Below, one piece after another: positions 2,849-49,815 of a stretch of DNA of 64,000 bases. The DNA is from a virus (Duplodnaviria > Caudoviricetes). The notes under the pieces are model-generated. The model was not told where the DNA came from. It searched no databases and saw only the letters and a program-made list of their open reading frames with translations. Position 1 is the first letter of the stretch; every line of letters starts with the position of its first letter. Location of the stretch: the IMG/VR virus record IMGVR_UViG_3300021256_000062, positions 94,918 to 158,917 of that record; one strand, given 5' to 3'. The position numbers and the translations under genes are program-made.

Positions 2849-2948
2849 AAGACAGTGTTCTTTGCTTGGGATTTGAACCCAAAATTGATTTCTTGGAAGG
2901 AAATTGACTTACCGTTTGTCTAGCATTTAGAATTGCTGTAACTGTCTT
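2849..2948 (-). ncRNA. Clamp RNA 1 enclosing a mini tRNA-Gly(TCC)-like cloverleaf
   Basis: AAGACAGT-TACAGCAA ... ACTGTCTT; interior D arm GAC-AAACGGTAA-GTC, anticodon arm ATTTC-CTTCCAA-GAAAT, T arm TTGGG-TTCAAAT-CCCAA; no full acceptor or CCA. Confidence 0.75.
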
Positions 2949-4130: not shown

Positions 4131-4207
4131 TGGTCTCCTAAATTGGATTTGAACCAATACTTTGTAAGGTTTGAGCTTACTACCTCTTCCAATTGGGTTA
4201 TTAGGAG
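4131..4207 (-). tRNA. tRNA-Leu(CAA), short variable arm
   Basis: GTAAG-CTCAAAC-CTTAC, CCA. Confidence 0.9.
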
Positions 4208-4636: not shown

Positions 4637-4686
4637 AATGTGATTTTGTTTAAAATTGTTCACCAACAACTTTTCATTATTAAATA

Positions 4687-4762
4687 TGGTGAGTCCGACG
4701 AGGTTCGAACTCGTGACCCCATGATTAAAAGTCATGTGCTCTACCAGCTGAGCTACGGACTC
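4687..4762 (-). tRNA. tRNA-Lys(TTT)
   Basis: CATGA-CTTTTAA-TCATG, CCA. Confidence 0.95.
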
Positions 4763-4766
4763 ATCT

Positions 4767-4843
4767 TGGCACACCGTAAGAGATTCGAACTCCTAACTTA
4801 TCGCTTAGAAGGCGATTACTCTAATCCGTTGAGTTAACGGTGT
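4767..4843 (-). tRNA. tRNA-Arg(TCT)
   Basis: ATCGC-CTTCTAA-GCGAT, CCA. Confidence 0.95.
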
Positions 4844-4854
4844 ATTCACATATT

Positions 4855-4883
4855 ATTATACAACATATTTATTTAATTGTCAA
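4855..4883 (-). promoter_or_regulatory. sigmaA-type promoter
   Basis: TTGACA-17-TATAAT. Confidence 0.85.
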
Positions 4884-4921
4884 GTAGGACTAATTTAATA
4901 GCCCTACTTTTATTATTACAA

Positions 4922-6145
4922 TTAAATTAAATAGTGAATATTCTTTCCATAACTTCTCTTAAATACTAAATATTTTATTCCTTTAGAGATTAGAATATTA
5001 TTCTTACATCTATTGTAATTATCCTTATAAGTTGTTACAGCATTCTTATATTCATCTTCATTCTCAAAATCACATCTATCTGGTTGATAGATTGATTCTT
5101 TACGTAATTCACTTGAAACCAATTCATCATAGTCTATATGTAAATCATTAGAATTAATGATATTTAACATCAACTTTGTGTCAAACTGAATATCTTGTGT
5201 ATTAAATCTTATATAGTAACCATCGTAATCATAACAAGCATCTTGTTCACTAAATATATCTAGTCTTAATTTTGAAGTTGTTGTTTGTGTACCATCATTT
5301 AATATTGCATAAACATTGTAATAAACAGGTTCAATATTCACAATATTTAAATCTTTAATGGCTTCTTCAAATGGTATTCCTTGAGATAATTCAAATGATA
5401 TTGCTCTTAAACAATCATAGTTTATATCAACTTTATTTGCGAAATTAATTACTTTAGATATTTCACCATAATATTTAGGTTCTAATTTATCTTCCATATA
5501 TTCTCTAATTTCATCAGCTGTAGGATAATCAAATCTAAAATGATAATGAAATCTACCAGGTCTATTGATTAAGAAATCATTTAAACCATTTAAATCATTA
5601 CATGTTACTACAAATAATTTCTTACTATTTGCAAGACCATCAAATAAAGTTAATAATGTAGTTTGGGAACTTGATGATGAGCCATCTCTATCTTCATCTG
5701 TAAATTTCAAATTACCTCTACCACTTTGAGCTTGTGCAAAAGTTTTATCAAATTCATCAAATAAAACTACACACTCTTGTTCAATTTCAGTTAGGTAATC
5801 AGCTATACCTGGGATATACTTATTAACAACTATAACAGGTAAGTTTTCCTCTAAAGATTTTTTTGCAATTAATTTTGCACAAATTGATTTTCCTATTCCC
5901 TTATCTCCTGATAAAATAACACCAAGATTTCTGTTCATAAGTTTATAGGCATTTAATACCTTATTTACTTTAGATAAATGTGGACCATAAATCTTTTCAT
6001 TAACATCAATCATTGGATAAAGTTGTAAGAAAAATCCAGATAATGGAGAGAATTCTACAGTATAACACTTATTAGGTAATACATCATAAGTTCTCAAATC
6101 ATCATCATAAATTCTGTAAATATTTCCTGTATTTACAATTTTCAA
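4922..6145 (-). CDS. AAA+ ATPase
   Basis: Walker A GDKGIGKS, Walker B VLFDEFDK, TCN, RPGRF. Confidence 0.9.
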   Translation of the reverse strand: MKIVNTGNIYRIYDDDLRTYDVLPNKCYTVEFSPLSGFFLQLYPMIDVNEKIYGPHLSKVNKVLNAYKLMNRNLGVILSGDKGIGKSICAKLIAKKSLEENLPVIVVNKYIPGIADYLTEIEQECVVLFDEFDKTFAQAQSGRGNLKFTDEDRDGSSSSSQTTLLTLFDGLANSKKLFVVTCNDLNGLNDFLINRPGRFHYHFRFDYPTADEIREYMEDKLEPKYYGEISKVINFANKVDINYDCLRAISFELSQGIPFEEAIKDLNIVNIEPVYYNVYAILNDGTQTTTSKLRLDIFSEQDACYDYDGYYIRFNTQDIQFDTKLMLNIINSNDLHIDYDELVSSELRKESIYQPDRCDFENEDEYKNAVTTYKDNYNRCKNNILISKGIKYLVFKRSYGKNIHYLI

Positions 6146-6168: not shown

Positions 6169-6245
6169 TGGTGCCATCTCTGGGATTCGAACCCAGACTT
6201 AAGGGCTTTTAAGACCCTTGCCTCTGCCAATTGGGCTAAGGTGGC
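6169..6245 (-). tRNA. tRNA-Leu(TAA), short variable arm
   Basis: AGGGT-CTTAAAA-GCCCT, CCA. Confidence 0.92.
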
Positions 6246-8101: not shown

Positions 8102-8178
8102 TGGTGGGGATGGAGGGAGTCGAACCCACACTGTCTAGTTTCTAAAACTAGTTCCTCTGCCAATTGGGATACATCCCC
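8102..8178 (-). tRNA. tRNA-Leu(TAG), short variable arm
   Basis: CTAGT-TTTAGAA-ACTAG, CCA. Confidence 0.92.
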
Positions 8179-8185
8179 AAAATAC

Positions 8186-8302
8186 AAGACTCATTTATCA
8201 TGGGTTTTGCAGGACTTGAACCTGCTACTTTCAAATTAGAAGTTTGACGCTCTACCAAATGAGCTAAAAATCCTAGAATGGAGTATTTGCAGTATGAGTC
8301 TT
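8186..8302 (-). ncRNA. Clamp RNA 4 enclosing a near-complete tRNA-Arg(TCT)-like cloverleaf (8201-8273)
   Basis: AAGACTC-ATACTGCAA ... GAGTCTT-G; GGATTTT/AAAACCC acceptor with one mismatch, TCAAA-CTTCTAA-TTTGA, no discriminator+CCA tail. Confidence 0.8.
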
Positions 8303-8531: not shown

Positions 8532-8607
8532 TGGTGGAGCTAGTCGGGTTCGAACCGACGACTTTCAACTTGCAAAGCTGACACTCTCCCAACTGAGTTA
8601 TAGCCCC
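8532..8607 (-). tRNA. tRNA-Ala(TGC)
   Basis: GGGGCTA start with G3-U70, TCAGC-TTTGCAA-GTTGA, CCA. Confidence 0.95.
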
Positions 8608-8694
8608 AAACATGTCCAAGCTTAAAGTACGAGGACAGAATCCTACTAGAAGATAACTTAATATATTATACAATAATTGTTTTTAATTTTATAC

Positions 8695-8758
8695 AAGACT
8701 CTATTTTGGGTATTATGATTAAAAGTCATAGCCTAAAATAAATTGCGGTATAAGTCTT
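8695..8758 (-). ncRNA. Clamp RNA 5 displaying a Lys(TTT) anticodon stem-loop
   Basis: AAGACT-TATACCGCAA ... AGTCTT-G; TATTTTAGG/CCCAAAATA stem capped by TATGA-CTTTTAA-TCATA. Confidence 0.8.
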
Positions 8759-8792
8759 TTTAAATTGTTCTTTATATTATTTTAAATGATTC

Positions 8793-8898
8793 AAGACACT
8801 TCTTTTTGCGTATACCATTTCGCCACTTAGCACATGCTGCTGAGATAGGATTCGAACCTATAATAATCTAAAAGATTAAGGTTTGCTGTATGTGTCTT
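8793..8898 (-). ncRNA. Clamp RNA 6: YrlA-like permuted tRNA (variable arm, T arm, loop-closed acceptor, D arm)
   Basis: AAGACAC-ATACAGCAA ... GTGTCTT-G; ATAGG-TTCGAAT-CCTAT, CTCAGCA-GCATG-TGCTAAG, TG-GCGAAATGGTATACGC. Confidence 0.8.
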
Positions 8899-8932
8899 TA
8901 TATCAGTAAAATTATTTATTTTATAAGTAATC

Positions 8933-9072
8933 AAGACATTCTTGTTGATTTTAAGTGTGATACCATTACACCACTCCCCTATATAATTAAATATATGGCA
9001 GGGGAGGAATGGATTCGAACCATCATCACTGGAGTTGCAGTCCCTATCATTTAGAATTGCAGTAAATGTCTT
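8933..9072 (-). ncRNA. Clamp RNA 7: circularly permuted tRNA with Cys(GCA) anticodon arm and internal CCA
   Basis: AAGACAT-TTACTGCAA ... ATGTCTT-G; order GGA-CTGCAAC-TCC, GATGG-TTCGAAT-CCATT, CTCCCCT-G-CCA, AT hairpin, AGGGGAG-TG-GTG-TAATGGTAT-CAC. Confidence 0.8.
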
Positions 9073-9081
9073 TATTTTATT

Positions 9082-10713
9082 TTATAACCAAGAAGGTTTA
9101 TCCATCTTTGATATAGTATTTCCAGACCACTTAATTCCAGCTTTAGTGACATTCTCTAAATATGGAATTGAATCATATGTCTTAACATCTAATTCCTTAA
9201 CTAGTGCTAAGAATGGGTCAGTCTCACCATTTAACACCATATTTAAAGTATTAACTGAGAATCCTGATACTAATACAACACCATTTTCATTTTGTGTTAA
9301 TGGAATAGTGTTTGTTCTAGAACATACATTCCAGAATACTAATTTAGGTAATTTATATCCTGCACTAGCATATTTTGTTTGCGCATTTCTAAATACATTA
9401 CTATCACTATTAAAATGATTATAACCATATGAAGAATCAAATTCCATATCTGAAATAATTAAAATTTGTTCAGGCATATCTTCAGGTTTAACCTTACCTT
9501 CAACAGCTGTCTTTAAGATTAAATTGAATACATTCTCAATATTAGTGTTTGAACAATCACTATAACAAAGACAAGTTTGTAATTTAGAATGTAATGATTG
9601 ACACATAGATAAATCTACTAATTTAGCTTGAGATGAGAAAGTAATAAACTTATCTTTAAATGTATCATTTAATCTTTCTGAACAATAAATTGCCAATGCA
9701 GTTGATACATCTAATGCGGTTGTATTACCAGAACCTACTTTTGACGTCATTGAACCTGAACCATCTCTAACAACGATTGTGTTATTTAAACCATCTTTTT
9801 GTTTTAGGTTCTTCCATAATTGTTCTAATGCTTCATCATAATCAGTTAAATGTGAATACCATCCATCACAATTAAAGTATTTAGTAACAATTTCGTGTGG
9901 GAAGTTAACTGAAGAATTAATCTTTACTTCCTTACCATCCTTATCTACACCTACTCTTAATGCAGCTAAGAAATCTCTACGTCTTTCTTCATCGTGTCTT
10001 AAGAAAGCATCCTTATACTTTAAGTTTGCTTTTGATGGAACTTGATTATAATCAATCTTACTCCATTCATTTGCAGATGTATAAGTTTCAATTACCTTTA
10101 AGTATGCTCTTAACTTTGATAAAAGTTGTCTATACTCTTTAGATGTTGCACCAAATGATTTGATGAAAATCTTTGCCAATTTCTTTGTTTTAGGAGATGA
10201 TGCATTTTCAGATGGCATCCACTTAGCTAATAATGAAATTGGTTTGTTATTATTCATATTAGTGAAATCTTGTTTTAATTGACTTAAAACAGTTTGTACC
10301 ATAAAATCTTGATATTCAGTACCAATGAAAACAAATAAGTCATCATATCTACCAAATTCAACTATTTGAGTCTTAATTAAGTCTTTAACAATTTCATCTT
10401 TATTCTTGAAATCTGAAACCTTAATTAAATGATTTAAGGCTACTCTAAATAATCTTCTTTCACCTAATCCTTCTCTTACTCCTCTTACATAGAATAAGAA
10501 TTTTAATAAGTATCTAGCATCACCTTGTTCAGCTAATACTAAATCAATATCCTTACAAATATCAGCATCTGTAAGTTTACGATATGAAGTTACCTTGAAA
10601 TTCATATCTAGTAATGGGTGGAAAGTAGTCTTATATCCCTCCATACCATTTTCAGTAATTGATACATTGTTTTGTACCTTTTTCATAGTTCCATAAAAAT
10701 CCATATTATCCAT
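9082..10713 (-). CDS. DUF2828-family protein (TROVE/Ro60-like helical domain + C-terminal vWA)
   Basis: TENG..., FYVRGVREGLGERRLF, FGRYDDL, LLAKWMPSE, IDYNQVPSKA, MIDAS VRDGSGSM, IISDMEFD, FWNV, VSGFS. Confidence 0.85.
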   Translation of the reverse strand: MDNMDFYGTMKKVQNNVSITENGMEGYKTTFHPLLDMNFKVTSYRKLTDADICKDIDLVLAEQGDARYLLKFLFYVRGVREGLGERRLFRVALNHLIKVSDFKNKDEIVKDLIKTQIVEFGRYDDLFVFIGTEYQDFMVQTVLSQLKQDFTNMNNNKPISLLAKWMPSENASSPKTKKLAKIFIKSFGATSKEYRQLLSKLRAYLKVIETYTSANEWSKIDYNQVPSKANLKYKDAFLRHDEERRRDFLAALRVGVDKDGKEVKINSSVNFPHEIVTKYFNCDGWYSHLTDYDEALEQLWKNLKQKDGLNNTIVVRDGSGSMTSKVGSGNTTALDVSTALAIYCSERLNDTFKDKFITFSSQAKLVDLSMCQSLHSKLQTCLCYSDCSNTNIENVFNLILKTAVEGKVKPEDMPEQILIISDMEFDSSYGYNHFNSDSNVFRNAQTKYASAGYKLPKLVFWNVCSRTNTIPLTQNENGVVLVSGFSVNTLNMVLNGETDPFLALVKELDVKTYDSIPYLENVTKAGIKWSGNTISKMDKPSWL

Positions 10714-10720
10714 CCTTTCT

Positions 10721-10782
10721 AGACACTACCATGTATATCCAACAACCATTAGACTTTACACTATTTGTTGCTGTATGTGTCT
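10721..10782 (-). promoter_or_regulatory. Clamp RNA 8 in the 5' leader of the DUF2828 gene, abutting its RBS
   Basis: AGACAC-ATACAGCAA ... GTGTCT immediately followed by AGAAAGG-ATG. Confidence 0.75.
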
Positions 10783-10802
10783 TATGTATTTTTACAAGTT
10801 CT

Positions 10803-10831
10803 ATTATACCATTATTTAATTACTTTGTCAA
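10803..10831 (-). promoter_or_regulatory. sigmaA-type promoter of the DUF2828/clamp-RNA operon
   Basis: TTGACA-17-TATAAT. Confidence 0.85.
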
Positions 10832-10864: not shown

Positions 10865-12030
10865 TAAGATGTCCATGTAATACCTACTCATAGGTGTTAA
10901 CAACTCCTTAGGACTGAAGGGGAAGTGGTTTACATCCTTCGTATACTCCTCAAAGTATACCCGCTATTAATTAACTAAATTAAGGCTCAATATTATCTAT
11001 GGATAATATTGGAATAACTTGTGCTATTCTTTTACGCACTTAACCGCACGATTTATCTGTCGCCATCAAGGTTTATGGGTGCGACCCTGAGTTTGCTCTC
11101 TTCTACGCTGTATTCAGACTTCGCACTTATGGTAGCGAGGCACCAATAATTTTAACTGAACAAGGGTCGTTGTATTTCACATTCAGACCCTCAAAACTGT
11201 CAAGTGAATGATATTCTAGGTGTCATTCCCACTATTAATTTGTATTCAACAAGATACTCATCTAAGAGTACCTTGTGTTTTTGAATGTTTTCAGGCTAAC
11301 ATACAACCTTTCGCTAATCTAATAGCACTTTGTGAGGCTCAACCTCACTTGTCTTGAATAATAATTTGGTTGGACTTGAACCAACAATGGCTTTTAACCG
11401 ATAGGCTATGTGTTGCCAATCCCTATCTCATCGTTTCACCCATAAGGCATCTTTTTATTGGATTGAACGCTTGTGATTTCCCTCATTAATCTACAAATTA
11501 TTATTTTATATCAAGAGTTCCCTTTGCTAACGTGTCAGGTGGGTAGACCTATAATGTCGCAGCTCACATCTGCTAGACATTTACTTTTCGAACTGCTTAA
11601 GTCAGTTATTCCTACTTCGCAACTCAGTCCATTACGCTGTTTAATTTTTTCTACATTATAGGCCAAACGGGTTTAAATGCTACTTATGGTTCTCACATAA
11701 TCTTTCCGAAACTAAGTCGGTGCTTCGCATACTAGGAATAGTAAACATAATGTAAACTATTACGCTATTTGATGTATATCCCACATGATTAGGAGTTCTC
11801 ATTTAAATTGTAGTCACTATATAGTTTTCCTTCTAAGATTTCATTTTATATAGCGAAAAAATCAAATCCGCTAGTGTGTGATTAAAACCACATCCACCGC
11901 CACCTTATTTTTCTAAATAAGGAAAATATTTGCTCTTATTCTATGTTCTTTATATCGAGCTAACTTTTAGGAGTTTTTCATCCAATATATTTCAAGGACT
12001 AAAGTTAATTGAAATAATTAAGTTTCTCTA
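10865..12030 (-). ncRNA. Large (~1.15 kb) structured ncRNA candidate (GOLLD/ROOL-like class, family unassigned); ends approximate
   Basis: No credible ORF, raised GC, many hairpins and long-range complementarities, embedded tRNA-elbow domain, TGTATAAT -10 at ~12043-12050. Confidence 0.7.
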
Positions 12031-12060
12031 TTGAGATATTATATTATACAATATTTATTT

Positions 12061-12785: not shown

Positions 12786-15725
12786 TTATTTTAAATCTTT
12801 ATCTAAAATTATATCATCATCAGTTAAATCATCTAAATCTAGATAATCATCAACATCAATTTCTTCAATTTCATCATCATCTTCATCTTTAATAATTTTA
12901 ACATTATTTAAATCATAATTATAAATTAAAGTACCATCAATATCATCATTGTACATTGAAATCTCTAAAGTATTACCTTCAGTAGATAGTATGATATCTG
13001 AACTTCCAATATAATCTTCTAATTTTCTCATTAATTCATCATAGAATTCATCATAATCATAAAATTCCCAACCATCTAAATATCTGATTGCCTTTTCTAC
13101 ATTATCATTAAATTTATTTTGTGCATAATTTCTTTCAATTCTTTTTTGTTTCTCTTGGTCATAAGTCTTTATAACTAACACAGGGAACTTTGTATCCCAT
13201 CCAAATAAATCCCCAGCTACCATCATTCTATGAAGACCCTCTTGTCCTGGATAATATGATAAATCAAGAACTGCAATAGGGAATTTCTTCTTCTTATCAG
13301 TGATAACTGTCTTAAGATAATCCAATGTCTTCTTATCATATTCTCTTTGTTGTTTTAAGTCGTTTGCAGTAACTTTCTTATGTTTCTTACTACTGAACAT
13401 ATCTGCACAAGCCTCATAATATTCTTGTGGAGACATTTGAACTATTTCACCAACTAAATTCTTTTTATTCTTATAATAATCAACATCATTACCTAATAAT
13501 AAATCTTTCCATGAACCAGTGGTACCTGTAGTTGATGTATCAAATATATCACTACCATTTACATCTCCTGTACCATAGTCAAAATCATCACTTTCCTTTA
13601 ATTTAGTTCTAAAGTTTTCAATGAACTCTAAACGTTTAGGATTTCCACCTAATACATCAAATAATTTAAAGTTTTTAATGTCTTGATATCTTGAATAGAT
13701 ATATCCATCATCAGTTTTATATTTAAAGTTATAATCATCTCCTACCACATCATATATCTCAAATTCATTAGTATGGTATGAATCAGGACAATAAATAGCA
13801 CATACTTGGTTCTTATCAAAATCATTTACTAAATCAGTACTTAAGTAACCATTTTGATATGCTGCATTTTTCATATCAGTATGAACACAATCATATGCAT
13901 TTGCAACTAAATATAAATTACCTTCAATATATAATCTTTGTGGTTCAGTTTTTGATAATAGGAAATTCTTAACTTGATATGGACTTTCAAACATATATAC
14001 ATCAAAAGCATCTTCATCAAATTTAACCATTTCAGTAAGTGATTCTTTTTTATCCCAATATGAATAGGCAACAGCTAATCTTTGTTTTTGATTTGGATAT
14101 TCTTTTTCAGTTGCACTCATAAATCTTGATATGAAATCTTTTTTAGTTTCATTATCTTTAGGATAAATTTCCAATAATTTACTTTCATTTATGTTATTAC
14201 TATTACTTGGATTCTTATTATCTATTAATTTTATTTGGTTAGGGTAAAAGGTAATGATTTGAGTATCAATACCTGCATTCATCATAGAATTGTATAAAAT
14301 AATTCCATCATAATCTCCCTCGCCTTGAACAGCGTCTATTACATCATAATATGATGTATCATTACTAAAATCATAAGCACCTAATAATGTGAAATACAAA
14401 TCTGGTGTATTTATTCCAAATTCATTGACTATATCTAATTCATTTTCAAAATAATCTTCACCATTGTCGTGTGCTTCTACAAAGTCCCATAACTTATCAT
14501 AGTCTATAATAAAAGGCTTTTCTAAATTTAGATAACATTCTTTTATCTTATTTCCATAGCCTAAAGAGAATTGTTTATTTGGAGTAAAAAATGTAGCATA
14601 TTTAAAAACATCGAAATCTTTATTTGTGGAATGATAACAAACTAATAATCTACCTTGATTATCTCTTACTTTACTATTCTTAAAAAACTCTACTTGCTCA
14701 TTACTAAGTGGGTTTCCTTCGCTATCTACTTCTTGTGATAAGTCTTCATTAAGTTCTTCATTTACAACACAATTATCAAAATCAACCAAACCATAAGTAA
14801 TAACACCACCTTCATCAGCCTTAATGCCGTCATATCCTAGAGATTGAATTAATACATAAAATGGGTATTCTGATGTTATATCGTAAATGTAATTTGAACT
14901 TTCTAACCTAAAACCAAATTGTGAAAGGAATTGTTTTAATTGTGTAGGTGTCATCTCAATTAACTTACAAAAGTTAAGAAATTCTTTGCTGTATTTACCT
15001 TTTACATTCCATATAGATGAACCTATATACCCTACATCTAGCAATTCACATTTAGAAAAATCTATATCTTTACTAAAGACCTTATTACCATATTCTTGAG
15101 CATATTTTTTATTTGGTGTAAACCAAGTAAGTCTATCTTTAGAATTAATTAATTTATCACTATCTTGACCATGATAGACAAGTTCTTCATCTAAACTTGT
15201 ATGTTCACCTACTATGTCAAAGTATCTATCTTCCCACTCATCAAATTGTTTTTCTAACTCATCATAATCTATTTCAGGTATTTCAGTTCTAACAGGTTTT
15301 TTTATCCATCCAGTATATAGAGAATAAACACCATTTGATTTAGCTGGTTGGTTTACATCTTCTACATATAATTCAACTTCTCTACCCTTTACTTTTATTT
15401 CATATTTACTGTTAAATAATGATTTATAGGCATTACAAAGTAATTGCATTATCTTTATGTCATCAGTAGTTCCTAAATCTGCTACTATATGTAAATCAAT
15501 ATCAGACATGTCAGTATAGTTATAATTTGCACTTGAACCTAATAATCTTATATCAACTACATCAAGAGTTAATCCATCTTCTTTTAGGTCATCTAAAAAA
15601 CTATCAGCTATATCTAATAATCTTTCTTTTACATCATCTCTTAATTCATCATCTTCATTCCATAATTTAGGATTAAGTGTATCATTAACTTTTATTTCTT
15701 CATTTAAATTTTTATCTATTTTCAT
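12786..15725 (-). CDS. Polyvalent protein: N-half of a nucleotidyltransferase + 2 ART-PolyVal-like + unknown module + ParB-like domain
   Basis: LNPKLW, GSSANYNY..SDIDLH, ELYVED, GVYS..W; YHG/YHS..FT...A..YG..GYDGI; EGLHR; LxE[ESD] linkers. Confidence 0.75.
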   Translation of the reverse strand: MKIDKNLNEEIKVNDTLNPKLWNEDDELRDDVKERLLDIADSFLDDLKEDGLTLDVVDIRLLGSSANYNYTDMSDIDLHIVADLGTTDDIKIMQLLCNAYKSLFNSKYEIKVKGREVELYVEDVNQPAKSNGVYSLYTGWIKKPVRTEIPEIDYDELEKQFDEWEDRYFDIVGEHTSLDEELVYHGQDSDKLINSKDRLTWFTPNKKYAQEYGNKVFSKDIDFSKCELLDVGYIGSSIWNVKGKYSKEFLNFCKLIEMTPTQLKQFLSQFGFRLESSNYIYDITSEYPFYVLIQSLGYDGIKADEGGVITYGLVDFDNCVVNEELNEDLSQEVDSEGNPLSNEQVEFFKNSKVRDNQGRLLVCYHSTNKDFDVFKYATFFTPNKQFSLGYGNKIKECYLNLEKPFIIDYDKLWDFVEAHDNGEDYFENELDIVNEFGINTPDLYFTLLGAYDFSNDTSYYDVIDAVQGEGDYDGIILYNSMMNAGIDTQIITFYPNQIKLIDNKNPSNSNNINESKLLEIYPKDNETKKDFISRFMSATEKEYPNQKQRLAVAYSYWDKKESLTEMVKFDEDAFDVYMFESPYQVKNFLLSKTEPQRLYIEGNLYLVANAYDCVHTDMKNAAYQNGYLSTDLVNDFDKNQVCAIYCPDSYHTNEFEIYDVVGDDYNFKYKTDDGYIYSRYQDIKNFKLFDVLGGNPKRLEFIENFRTKLKESDDFDYGTGDVNGSDIFDTSTTGTTGSWKDLLLGNDVDYYKNKKNLVGEIVQMSPQEYYEACADMFSSKKHKKVTANDLKQQREYDKKTLDYLKTVITDKKKKFPIAVLDLSYYPGQEGLHRMMVAGDLFGWDTKFPVLVIKTYDQEKQKRIERNYAQNKFNDNVEKAIRYLDGWEFYDYDEFYDELMRKLEDYIGSSDIILSTEGNTLEISMYNDDIDGTLIYNYDLNNVKIIKDEDDDEIEEIDVDDYLDLDDLTDDDIILDKDLK

Positions 15726-49664: not shown

Positions 49665-49815
49665 AGTCTCTATTAAATCATATAGTACTTACTTAAGAGC
49701 CAAACTCGACTGAGATTCTAGGTTATGCTAGTTTGCTCAGTCTCTTCCTCATTAAAAATTTGTTATCAATCTTCTTTTAAATATTTTTAAATAATTAAGA
49801 TTGCTGTGTGAGACT
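49665..49815 (-). ncRNA. Clamp RNA 9, between the RNA ligase and HPr-like genes
   Basis: AGTCTC-ACACAGCAA ... GAGACT-AG; internal GACTGAG/CTCAGTC hairpin; TGTATAAT just upstream. Confidence 0.6.

What the first reader, a model, noticed from the sequence alone, without database searches (positions are those of the whole stretch)
8793..8898. YrlA-architecture RNA built on a class II (Leu-like) tRNA elbow
Seen: a hairpin TAATC-TTTTA-GATTA (variable-arm-like), a T arm with TTCGAAT, an acceptor stem closed by a 5-nt loop, then a Leu-type D arm GCGAAATGGTATACGC. The clamp occupies the anticodon-stem position. Known: this T, closed-acceptor, D topology with the protein-binding stem replacing the anticodon arm is the hallmark of YrlA Y RNAs. 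It is the strongest single link between the clamp family and Ro/Y biology.
Basis: partly seen in the sequence, partly recalled or inferred. Interest (0 to 1): 0.8.

Follow-up and report, generated by a model that had tools for sequence, protein, structure and literature searches.

The report
Phage Y-RNA-like tRNA-elbow mimic
A 106-base phage RNA gene is a rearranged leucine tRNA without its anticodon arm, held shut by a conserved stem; it lies just after a gene for a Ro60-shaped protein, so it looks like a new, widespread phage cousin of the bacterial Ro60/Y-RNA particle.

Summary
On the minus strand, 8898->8793 holds a 7-bp terminal stem, an unpaired ACAGCAA, a variable-arm hairpin, a canonical T arm, a 7-bp acceptor closed by 5 nt, and a Leu-type D arm. 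Four independent orthologs keep all five helices, with compensatory changes and invariant elbow nucleotides.

Two orthologs still carry a Leu(UAA) anticodon arm. When re-permuted in silico, ARAGORN calls them tRNA-Leu. The element is therefore a circularly permuted class II tRNA-Leu that lost its anticodon arm.

The gene 184 nt upstream (DUF2828+DUF7788) is predicted to have the Ro60 fold (Z 18.9 over 419 residues). ACAGCAA stems cluster on its strand in 77 of 80 related viral loci. They also occur in cultured Bacillus, E. coli and Mycobacterium phages.

It has the YrlA architecture but is not a YrlA member. The Rfam YrlA model does not match it, the GNCGAA motif is replaced by ACAGCAA, and the protein is not Pfam TROVE. 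A canonical TROVE phage control (Bxz1) does give a YrlA hit.

Best reading: it is an adaptor RNA of a sister Ro60-like RNP that acts on tRNA. Binding and expression are inferred, not shown. The scan had already noted this locus and family in other notes on this genome.

Verdict: new variant of a known kind.

The parts
8892..8898 (-). 5' arm of the terminal stem ('clamp'), pairs with 8793-8799
   Evidence: 7/7 pairs; two positions change on both sides among orthologs. In 73 family members 98.8% of cells are paired and all 7 pairs show compensatory change.
8883..8889 (-). Unpaired ACAGCAA motif, two bases after the 5' arm; proposed protein-recognition element
   Evidence: C, G, C and the last A are invariant in 73/73 aligned family members. 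ACWGCAA occurs 503 times on the gene strand against 44 on the other strand in 80 DUF2828 loci.
8864..8878 (-). Variable-arm hairpin (5 bp, 5-nt loop) of the class II tRNA body
   Evidence: Predicted; conserved in 5 orthologs.
8845..8861 (-). T arm (5 bp, 7-nt loop UUCGAAU)
   Evidence: One pair switches U-A to C-G among orthologs. T54, T55, C56 and A58 equivalents are invariant.
8826..8844 (-). Acceptor stem closed by a 5-nt loop (7 positions, one C.A mismatch kept in all orthologs); no CCA
8808..8825 (-). U8-G9 linker and Leu-type D arm (3 bp, 10-nt loop with GG)
   Evidence: GG, A14, A15 and A21 equivalents are invariant.
8800..8807 (-). A-rich 3' linker. In orthologs L010 and L012 a Leu(UAA) anticodon arm sits here.
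   Evidence: Alignment A2; ARAGORN on re-permuted orthologs; A-rich consensus in the family.
8792..8799 (-). 3' arm of the terminal stem, plus the conserved G that follows it
   Evidence: The G after the stem is present in 71/73 family members.
9082..10713 (-). Gene for a 543-aa DUF2828+DUF7788 protein with predicted Ro60 fold (helical-repeat ring plus vWA with MIDAS); proposed protein partner
   Evidence: Pfam. AF2 pLDDT 86. Foldseek top 13 hits are all Ro60/TROVE, E 6.6e-9. VIA Z 18.9, rmsd 3.9 A over 419 residues. PHROG 850 'RNA-binding protein'.
10720..10831 (-). Perfect sigma-70-type promoter (10831-10803), then a clamp element in the 5' UTR (about 10783-10720) that ends just before the ribosome-binding site of the DUF2828 gene; possible autoregulatory site
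   Evidence: The same 5' UTR element occurs in L008, L010 and L012. Clamps peak within 250 nt upstream of the gene in 80 loci.
8932..9072 (-). Sister element B: a clamp enclosing a permuted class I tRNA-like body with an encoded G-CCA and a 15-nt AU linker in the acceptor
   Evidence: (z -2.75).
8693..8758 (-). Sister element C: a clamp carrying only a Lys(UUU)-like anticodon stem-loop
8186..8302 (-). Clamp enclosing an unpermuted tRNA-Arg(UCU)-like body
2849..2948 (-). Clamp enclosing an unpermuted Gly(UCC)-like tRNA mimic with a defective acceptor
49665..49815 (-). Distant family member, 33 nt downstream of an RNA ligase (PF09414) ORF at 51039-49849

Best explanation
The element is a small non-coding RNA of the Y-RNA type with two modules.

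Module 1 is the 7-bp stem formed by its two ends plus the adjacent unpaired ACAGCAA and the A-rich opposite strand. It is the docking site for the Ro60-fold protein encoded 184 nt upstream (DUF2828+DUF7788).

Module 2 is a circularly permuted class II tRNA-Leu body that has lost its anticodon arm. It is expected to fold into the tRNA L-shape core (D-loop/T-loop elbow, closed acceptor, long variable arm).

The RNA is probably co-transcribed with the protein gene and the tRNA array, then cut out. In the particle, the tRNA elbow serves as a handle that brings a tRNA-elbow-binding factor to the ring protein, or gates the ring. This is part of a phage system that watches over, repairs or protects tRNAs during infection.

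Shown: the anatomy, its conservation and covariation, its Leu-tRNA ancestry, the predicted Ro60 fold of the neighbouring protein, and the tight genomic association of the motif with that gene family.

Inferred: protein binding, transcription and processing, the L-shaped fold, and the biological role.
For: Anatomy and conservation:
- The five helices are recovered by the MFE fold and by RNAalifold.
- They are kept in four independent orthologs, with compensatory changes and invariant elbow nucleotides.
- Orthologs L010 and L012 carry a Leu(UAA) anticodon arm, and ARAGORN calls them tRNA-Leu(taa) after re-permutation. The window and L008 copies lack that arm yet keep everything else, so the elbow is under selection, not decoding.

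Partner protein:
- AF2 model with pLDDT 86 and pTM 0.85.
- The Foldseek top 13 PDB hits are all Ro60/TROVE, including a Thermus phage Ro60.
- VIA gives Z 18.9 over 419 residues, against about 10 for vWA-only hits.
- MIDAS residues D317, S319 and S321 are invariant.
- hhalign links the vWA part to Bxz1 Ro60 (E 1.8e-4).

Association of the motif with the gene:
- In 80 viral loci holding the gene, ACWGCAA occurs 503 times on the gene strand against 44 on the other. With a fully paired 7-nt arm the counts are 263 against 5, and 77 of 80 loci have at least one.
- All 236 covariance-model hits lie on the gene strand.
- In 73 aligned members, 95.8% of cells are paired against 32-45% when slid, and all 27 pairs show compensatory change. 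G.U pairs occur, which points to RNA rather than DNA.
- A clamp sits in the gene's own 5' UTR beside the ribosome-binding site.

Context:
- There is no terminator between the gene and the element.
- RNA-repair genes lie beside the gene in relatives: Tpt1 and RNA ligase. In this genome a clamp follows the RNA ligase gene.
- The same RNA type occurs next to the same protein in cultured Bacillus, E. coli (Felixounavirus) and Mycobacterium phages.
- The architecture equals that described for YrlA (PMC4201824; bioRxiv 10.1101/312249).
Against:
- The folding energy of the single sequence is not unusual (z -0.77).
- Only four independent orthologs of this exact element were found, so its own covariation rests on three pairs.
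- The large family alignment was fitted to the model, which favours pairing.
- The stem is separated from the tRNA core by a 12/8-nt internal loop, so coaxial stacking like an anticodon stem is unproven.
- The YrlA model does not recognise it, the motif differs from GNCGAA, and the protein is not TROVE by sequence. The Ro60 analogy therefore rests on a predicted fold.
- The effector that would read the elbow is unknown, as it is for YrlA itself.
Confidence: 0.6

Rival explanations
1. The stems are cis-acting processing or stability signals of the long tRNA-array transcript: flank-pairing helices cut by a host or phage ribonuclease, as in rRNA operons. On this view the element is a decaying tRNA-Leu pseudogene caught inside one, with no role of its own and no protein partnership.
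For: The stems also enclose apparently ordinary tRNA bodies (8302-8186). They sit inside tRNA arrays in several phages. No terminators separate them. This copy has lost an arm.
Against: - The elbow nucleotides and all remaining helices are invariant or covary after loss of the anticodon arm.
- The motif tracks the DUF2828 gene, including its 5' UTR, in 77 of 80 loci and across phages of unrelated hosts.
- Many stems carry only short hairpins and no tRNA to be released.
- One follows an RNA ligase gene far from the array.
Confidence: 0.17
2. It is a functional circularly permuted tRNA gene. As in red algae, the ends are joined and the acceptor loop is opened, giving a decoding tRNA-Leu.
For: Orthologs L010 and L012 have every tRNA part and are called tRNA-Leu(taa) once re-permuted. 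The phage lineage encodes an RNA ligase, and relatives encode Tpt1. Sister element B encodes G-CCA in its acceptor.
Against: - The window copy and L008 have no anticodon arm at all.
- The acceptor is closed by 4-5 nt with no CCA.
- The ends form a 7-bp helix with a 9-nt bulge, not a bulge-helix-bulge.
- The phage already carries a tRNA-Leu(UAA) gene.
Confidence: 0.03
3. It is a stand-alone tRNA decoy that soaks up a host tRNA-directed defence or modification enzyme through its elbow. The stem only gives nuclease resistance, and the neighbouring protein is unrelated to it.
For: Sister elements display bare Lys(UUU)-like and other anticodon loops. These resemble targets of anticodon nucleases (established knowledge of PrrC-type enzymes).
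Against: This copy has no anticodon loop to be cut. The invariant ACAGCAA next to the stem and the strict linkage to the Ro60-fold gene are not explained by stability alone.
Confidence: 0.15
4. It is a DNA-level element: short inverted repeats of a mobile or recombination element that carries tRNA fragments.
For: 7-bp inverted repeats flank variable cargo, and many copies occur per genome.
Against: - The arm sequences differ between copies while pairing is kept, including G.U pairs that would be mismatches in DNA.
- The motif is strongly strand-specific and co-oriented with transcription.
- No transposase is linked to it.
Confidence: 0.05

Closest known systems
YrlA, the tRNA-like bacterial Y RNA bound by Rsr/Ro60 (Rfam RF02553; Chen 2014 PMC4201824; Wang 2018 bioRxiv 10.1101/312249)
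   Same: - It has a 5'/3' terminal stem with a conserved 5'-strand motif.
- The order of the tRNA-like parts is variable arm, T arm, loop-closed acceptor, D arm.
- The elbow nucleotides are conserved, and a class II-type long variable arm occurs in many members.
- It is encoded within 4 kb of a ring-shaped Ro60-fold protein, on the same strand and next to tRNA genes.
   Different: - The RF02553 model gives no match at E<=10.
- The motif is ACAGCAA, not GNCGAA.
- The partner is DUF2828+DUF7788, not Pfam TROVE.
- It has a 7-position acceptor.
- It belongs to a multi-copy family whose cargo ranges from bare anticodon hairpins to whole tRNAs.
- Orthologs still keep a full anticodon arm.
Phage Ro60 with Y-RNA-like RNAs (mycobacteriophage Bxz1/ET08 YrlA; Thermus phage phiLo Yrl1/Yrl2, PMC12135203)
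   Same: A phage-encoded Ro60-fold protein has small stem-bulge-stem RNAs encoded beside it. The phiLo Ro60 structures (9kop, 9l5y) are among the best structural matches.
   Different: Those proteins are canonical TROVE proteins, and their RNAs carry the CGAA motif. Bxz1 gives TROVE plus vWA_Ro60 and a YrlA hit. The DUF2828 phages Chaser and JH2 give neither, but do give ACAGCAA-stem RNAs.
Circularly permuted tRNA genes of Cyanidioschyzon merolae and other algae and archaea (own knowledge; reviewed in PMC4090602)
   Same: The 3' part of the tRNA is encoded before the 5' part. The acceptor strands are joined by a short linker, and the pre-RNA ends pair with each other.
   Different: Those are matured into working tRNAs through a bulge-helix-bulge and a circular intermediate. 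Here the window copy lacks the anticodon arm, has no bulge-helix-bulge, and carries a conserved protein-type motif instead.
Metazoan and Deinococcus Y RNAs with Ro60
   Same: The RNA is modular: a terminal stem that binds the outside of the ring, plus an effector module. In Deinococcus the effector module tethers a partner such as PNPase.
   Different: Those RNAs have no full tRNA-like core, their conserved helix sequence is different, and the protein family is different at the sequence level.

Membership tests
YrlA (Rfam RF02553) | Scores at or above the family's covariance-model threshold (69 bits) | tested here: not met
   There is no RF02553 hit on 8600-9150 at E<=10. The whole-genome search gives at best 18.8 bits, at tRNA junctions and not on this element. 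Positive control: Bxz1 gives 32.5 bits upstream of its Ro60 gene.
YrlA (Rfam RF02553) | 5' GNCGAAN0-1G motif (proposed Rsr contact; PMC4201824) | tested here: not met
   The 5' strand carries ACAGCAA at 8889-8883 instead.
YrlA (Rfam RF02553) | Order V, T, closed acceptor, D, with the 5'/3' stem on the anticodon side | tested here: met
YrlA (Rfam RF02553) | Nucleotides for tRNA tertiary contacts: U8, A14, R15:Y48, G18G19, T54-A58, C56 | tested here: met
   All are present and invariant in 5 orthologs. A15:U48 holds in 4 of 5 and is A15/C48 in L010. The fold itself was not probed.
YrlA (Rfam RF02553) | Encoded within 4 kb of a TROVE-domain Ro60 ortholog, on the same strand | tested here: not met
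   There is no Pfam TROVE in the 158.9-kb genome. The neighbouring gene, 184 nt away on the same strand, is DUF2828+DUF7788 with a predicted Ro60 fold.
YrlA (Rfam RF02553) | Bound by Ro60/Rsr; T and D loops modified by TruB and DusA | not testable with these tools
   Needs immunoprecipitation and modification mapping.
Ro60 / TROVE proteins (for the neighbouring gene) | Helical-repeat ring plus C-terminal vWA domain with MIDAS | tested here: met
   The predicted model aligns over residues 13-503 to Xenopus Ro60 11-537 (Z 18.9, rmsd 3.9 A, 419 residues). D317, S319 and S321 are invariant. This is a prediction, not a solved structure.
Ro60 / TROVE proteins (for the neighbouring gene) | Sequence match to Pfam TROVE (PF05731) or to Ro60 chains | tested here: not met
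   There is only a weak profile link over the vWA part (hhalign E 1.8e-4, probability 48%).
Functional circularly permuted tRNA gene | All tRNA parts present, including the anticodon arm | tested here: not met
   The window copy goes from the D arm through an 8-nt A-rich linker straight to the stem. Orthologs L010 and L012 do have the arm.
Functional circularly permuted tRNA gene | Bulge-helix-bulge at the paired termini for splicing-endonuclease cleavage | tested here: not met
   The termini form a 7-bp helix followed by an asymmetric 12/8-nt loop, with no 3-4-3 bulge-helix-bulge. No splicing endonuclease was searched for.

The most novel reading that the evidence does not exclude
DUF2828 proteins, present in at least 701 cultured phage genomes and thousands of metagenomic ones, form a second and so far undescribed Ro60-like RNP lineage. 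Its Y-like RNAs share one docking module, the stem plus ACAGCAA. They display a library of tRNA parts: elbows, bare anticodon loops and whole tRNAs. Phages use this particle to capture, repair or shield tRNAs, or to trap host tRNA-cleaving defence nucleases. The orthologs that still carry a complete permuted tRNA-Leu would be living intermediates that show how Y RNAs arise from tRNAs.
Probability: 0.35. Interest if true: 0.85.

Novelty: new variant of a known kind. Interest (0 to 1): 0.65.

Why it matters
- The role of the tRNA-like module of bacterial Y RNAs is still unknown. This sister system shows the same design evolved on a different protein and RNA recognition pair. It sits in phages that can be grown in the laboratory (Felix O1-like coliphages, Bacillus, Listeria, Staphylococcus and Mycobacterium phages) and beside tRNA arrays and RNA-repair genes, so the question can be tested genetically.
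- It would give a function and an RNA ligand to a very large 'DUF' family that is annotated only as an RNA-binding or Ro-like protein.
- It would explain unannotated gaps in phage tRNA arrays.
- It offers a clear evolutionary series from a complete permuted tRNA-Leu to an anticodon-less Y-like RNA.

Tried and rejected
- Rfam at gathering and E-value thresholds found no YrlA, Y_RNA or other family on the element. A 20-bit 'tRNA' hit that joins B's D arm to A's T arm is an artefact.
- ARAGORN does not call the element.
- A single-protein scan of viral contigs found no relatives; the alignment-based scan did.
- An exact-pattern scan of viral contigs found only one further copy, identical to L012.
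None had an upstream T loop of the right kind.
- Sequence searches of the protein against PDB chains, as a single sequence and as a profile, and against NCBIfam found no Ro60.
- The library of open-access papers and preprints held nothing on DUF2828 with an RNA partner, or on permuted tRNAs in phages.
- Tpt1 and RtcB are absent from this genome, although Tpt1 flanks the gene in relatives.
- I considered a k-turn, a bulge-helix-bulge and a ribozyme for the stem and motif. I rejected them by inspection and because Rfam gave no hits.
- My crude cargo classifier and permuted-module scanner mix in tandem-tRNA junctions. They are used only as rough counts.

Full report
**Setting.** The window is the last 64 kb of a 158.9-kb, 94%-complete viral record. 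All relevant features lie on the minus strand. ARAGORN and Rfam find 27 tRNAs plus a tmRNA between 2959 and 8607. Just upstream in transcription order lie three unannotated elements: 9072-8932, 8898-8793 and 8758-8693. Before them is a 543-aa ORF (10713-9082), preceded by a perfect TTGACA-17-TATAAT promoter. No terminator-like site occurs down to 8100.

**Observation.** Read 5'->3' on the minus strand, 8898-8793 contains:
- a 7-nt arm
- two bases, then ACAGCAA
- a 5-bp hairpin with a 5-nt loop
- a canonical T arm with loop UUCGAAU
- a 7-position acceptor with one C.A, closed by 5 nt
- U-G
- a 3-bp D stem with a 10-nt loop containing GG
- an 8-nt A-rich linker
- the complementary 7-nt arm, then G

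The MFE fold gives these helices, but its energy is not exceptional (z -0.77).

**Conservation.** Relatives of the ORF (74-80% identity) were located on metagenomic contigs. The same element lies downstream of the gene in L008, L009, L010 and L012 (identical to L014 and L017).
- In the 5-sequence alignment, 95.6% of cells pair against 26-38% for slid partners.
- Two clamp pairs and one T-stem pair change on both sides.
- The C.A mismatch is kept in every copy.
- The U8, A14, A15, G18G19, A21, G53:C61, T54, T55, C56 and A58 equivalents are invariant.
- RNAalifold independently predicts the same five helices.

**Ancestry.** L010 and L012 carry a 5-bp stem with a 7-nt loop reading CUUAAAA between the D arm and the 3' arm. 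I cut these two orthologs in the acceptor loop, rejoined them at the stem side and added an ACCA tail. ARAGORN then calls a full-length class II tRNA-Leu(taa) at every junction offset tried. The lineage is therefore a circularly permuted tRNA-Leu broken between the anticodon stem and the variable arm. The window and L008 copies have lost the anticodon arm cleanly while keeping everything else. That argues against a decoding role and for selection on the elbow plus stem.

**The neighbouring protein.**
- Pfam gives DUF7788 (2.6e-43) and DUF2828 (1.1e-25), and no TROVE anywhere in the genome.
- PHROGs calls it an RNA-binding protein.
- An AF2 model from 40 homologs has pLDDT 86 and pTM 0.85.
- The best 13 Foldseek PDB matches are all Ro60/TROVE: Xenopus, human, Deinococcus and Thermus phage phiLo, E down to 6.6e-9 over the full length. 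After them come only vWA domains.
- VIA-align gives Z 18.9, rmsd 3.9 A and 419 aligned residues to Ro60, against about 10 for vWA-only chains.
- The MIDAS residues are invariant.
- Sequence methods see only a weak link in the vWA part.
- Actinobacteriophage annotators already label members 'Ro-like RNA binding protein'. The protein's likeness to Ro is therefore not new; its RNA partner is.

**The RNA family.** The motif with a paired arm recurs in the window, always on the minus strand. One copy lies in the 5' UTR of the protein gene, ending just before the ribosome-binding site.
- Across 80 viral loci holding the gene at 44-74% identity, ACWGCAA occurs 503 times on the gene strand against 44 on the other.
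- With a fully paired 7-nt arm at fixed spacing the counts are 263 against 5, and 77 of 80 loci have at least one. The positions peak just before and just after the gene.
- A covariance model of the element finds 236 hits at E<=1, all on the gene strand.
- In 73 aligned hits, 95.8% of cells pair against 32-45% when slid. All 27 pairs show compensatory change, and G.U pairs are present. This alignment was fitted to the model, which favours pairing.
- The cargo varies: short hairpins, often Lys(UUU)-like anticodon loops; a T arm only; a T arm plus closed acceptor plus D arm; or whole tRNAs.
- In some loci the same object appears in the other permutation: a tRNA with open acceptor ends whose anticodon arm is replaced by a loop-closed stem followed by the motif. 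This was read from the L082 sequence.

**Cultured phages.** tblastn finds the protein in 701 phage records. The model hits a stem-plus-permuted-tRNA-like RNA in three cultured phages:
- in an unannotated gap of the Bacillus phage Skywalker tRNA array
- in the tRNA region downstream of the gene in Escherichia phage JH2 (Felixounavirus)
- in the gap after the 'Ro-like' gene of Mycobacterium phage Chaser

**Is it YrlA?** Chen 2014 defines YrlA by three features: proximity to a TROVE Ro60 on the same strand, a 5' GNCGAA motif, and V, T, closed acceptor, D order with tRNA tertiary nucleotides. Wang 2018 calls most YrlAs circularly permuted tRNAs with closed acceptors, many with class II variable arms.
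- The element meets the architectural features.
- It fails the sequence-defined ones. There is no RF02553 hit, a different motif and a non-TROVE partner.
- The control works. Bxz1 gp220 is TROVE plus vWA_Ro60 and has a YrlA hit about 190 nt upstream. The DUF2828 phages Chaser and JH2 have none.
- I therefore file it as a sister system, not a member.

**Mechanism.** The best-supported reading is a Y-RNA-type adaptor. The stem and motif dock on the Ro60-fold protein, and the tRNA elbow is an effector handle.
- Context points to tRNA surveillance, repair or counter-defence. Tpt1 and RNA ligase lie next to the gene in relatives.
- An RNA ligase gene is followed by a clamp in this genome.
- The element sits beside a tRNA array and a tmRNA.
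- The 5' UTR copy suggests feedback control by mimicry.

Binding, expression, processing and the partner of the elbow are all inferred.

**Rivals.** Four alternatives are weighed in their own section, and each explains less: a processing signal with a pseudogene, a working permuted tRNA, a protein-independent decoy, and a DNA repeat.

Noticed in passing
window 8932-9072 (-): Sister element B is a complete permuted class I tRNA-like RNA. Its acceptor strands (7 bp) are separated by G-CCA plus a 15-nt AU-rich linker, so it could be opened by RNase P and 3' trimming to leave a CCA end. The L008 ortholog has a short closed acceptor without CCA instead.
   Followed up: partly
window 10865-12060 (-): A stretch of about 1.15 kb has no ORF and lies between the DUF2828 promoter and the next gene. 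It is GC-richer than its flanks. It holds a tRNA-like hit with a large insertion (11361-11500, 30.5 bits), and Rfam finds no other family. A structured-looking gap of about 350 nt occupies the same relative place in Bacillus phage Skywalker (L221, about 4650-5000, minus strand).
   Followed up: partly
window 4131-4207, 6169-6245, 8102-8178 (-): All three phage tRNA-Leu genes (CAA, UAA, UAG) are 77 nt long with a short variable loop. That is class I shape, although bacterial tRNA-Leu is normally class II. The only Leu-type class II body in the region is the anticodon-less element studied here.
   Followed up: no
window 49665-49815 (-) and ORF 51039-49849 (-): A clamp-family RNA with a long, different cargo lies 33 nt downstream of the phage's RNA ligase (PF09414) gene.
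   Followed up: partly
window 12786-15725 (-): A 979-aa protein combines a nucleotidyltransferase domain (NTP_transf_2, weak) with an ART-PolyVal ADP-ribosyltransferase domain. It lies two genes upstream of the DUF2828 gene.
   Followed up: no
window 4922-6145 (-): An AAA/STAND-like ATPase gene is embedded in the middle of the tRNA array.
   Followed up: no
window 8186-8302 (-) and 2849-2948 (-): Two clamps enclose unpermuted tRNA bodies. One is a second tRNA-Arg(UCU) with an A.C mismatch in its acceptor. The other is a Gly(UCC)-like body whose acceptor is replaced by a bulged helix that continues into the clamp.
   Followed up: partly
L082 about 2133-2318, also L074 and L078 (+): In more distant DUF2828 phages, a tRNA with normal open acceptor ends has its anticodon arm replaced by a loop-closed stem followed by the ACAGCAA motif. 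This is the same object as the element studied here, in the opposite circular permutation.
   Followed up: partly
L010 2860-3399, L012 1976-2515, L009 258-914: In close relatives the DUF2828 gene is flanked by Tpt1/KptA (RNA 2'-phosphotransferase) or an RNA ligase. This genome lacks Tpt1 and RtcB.
   Followed up: partly
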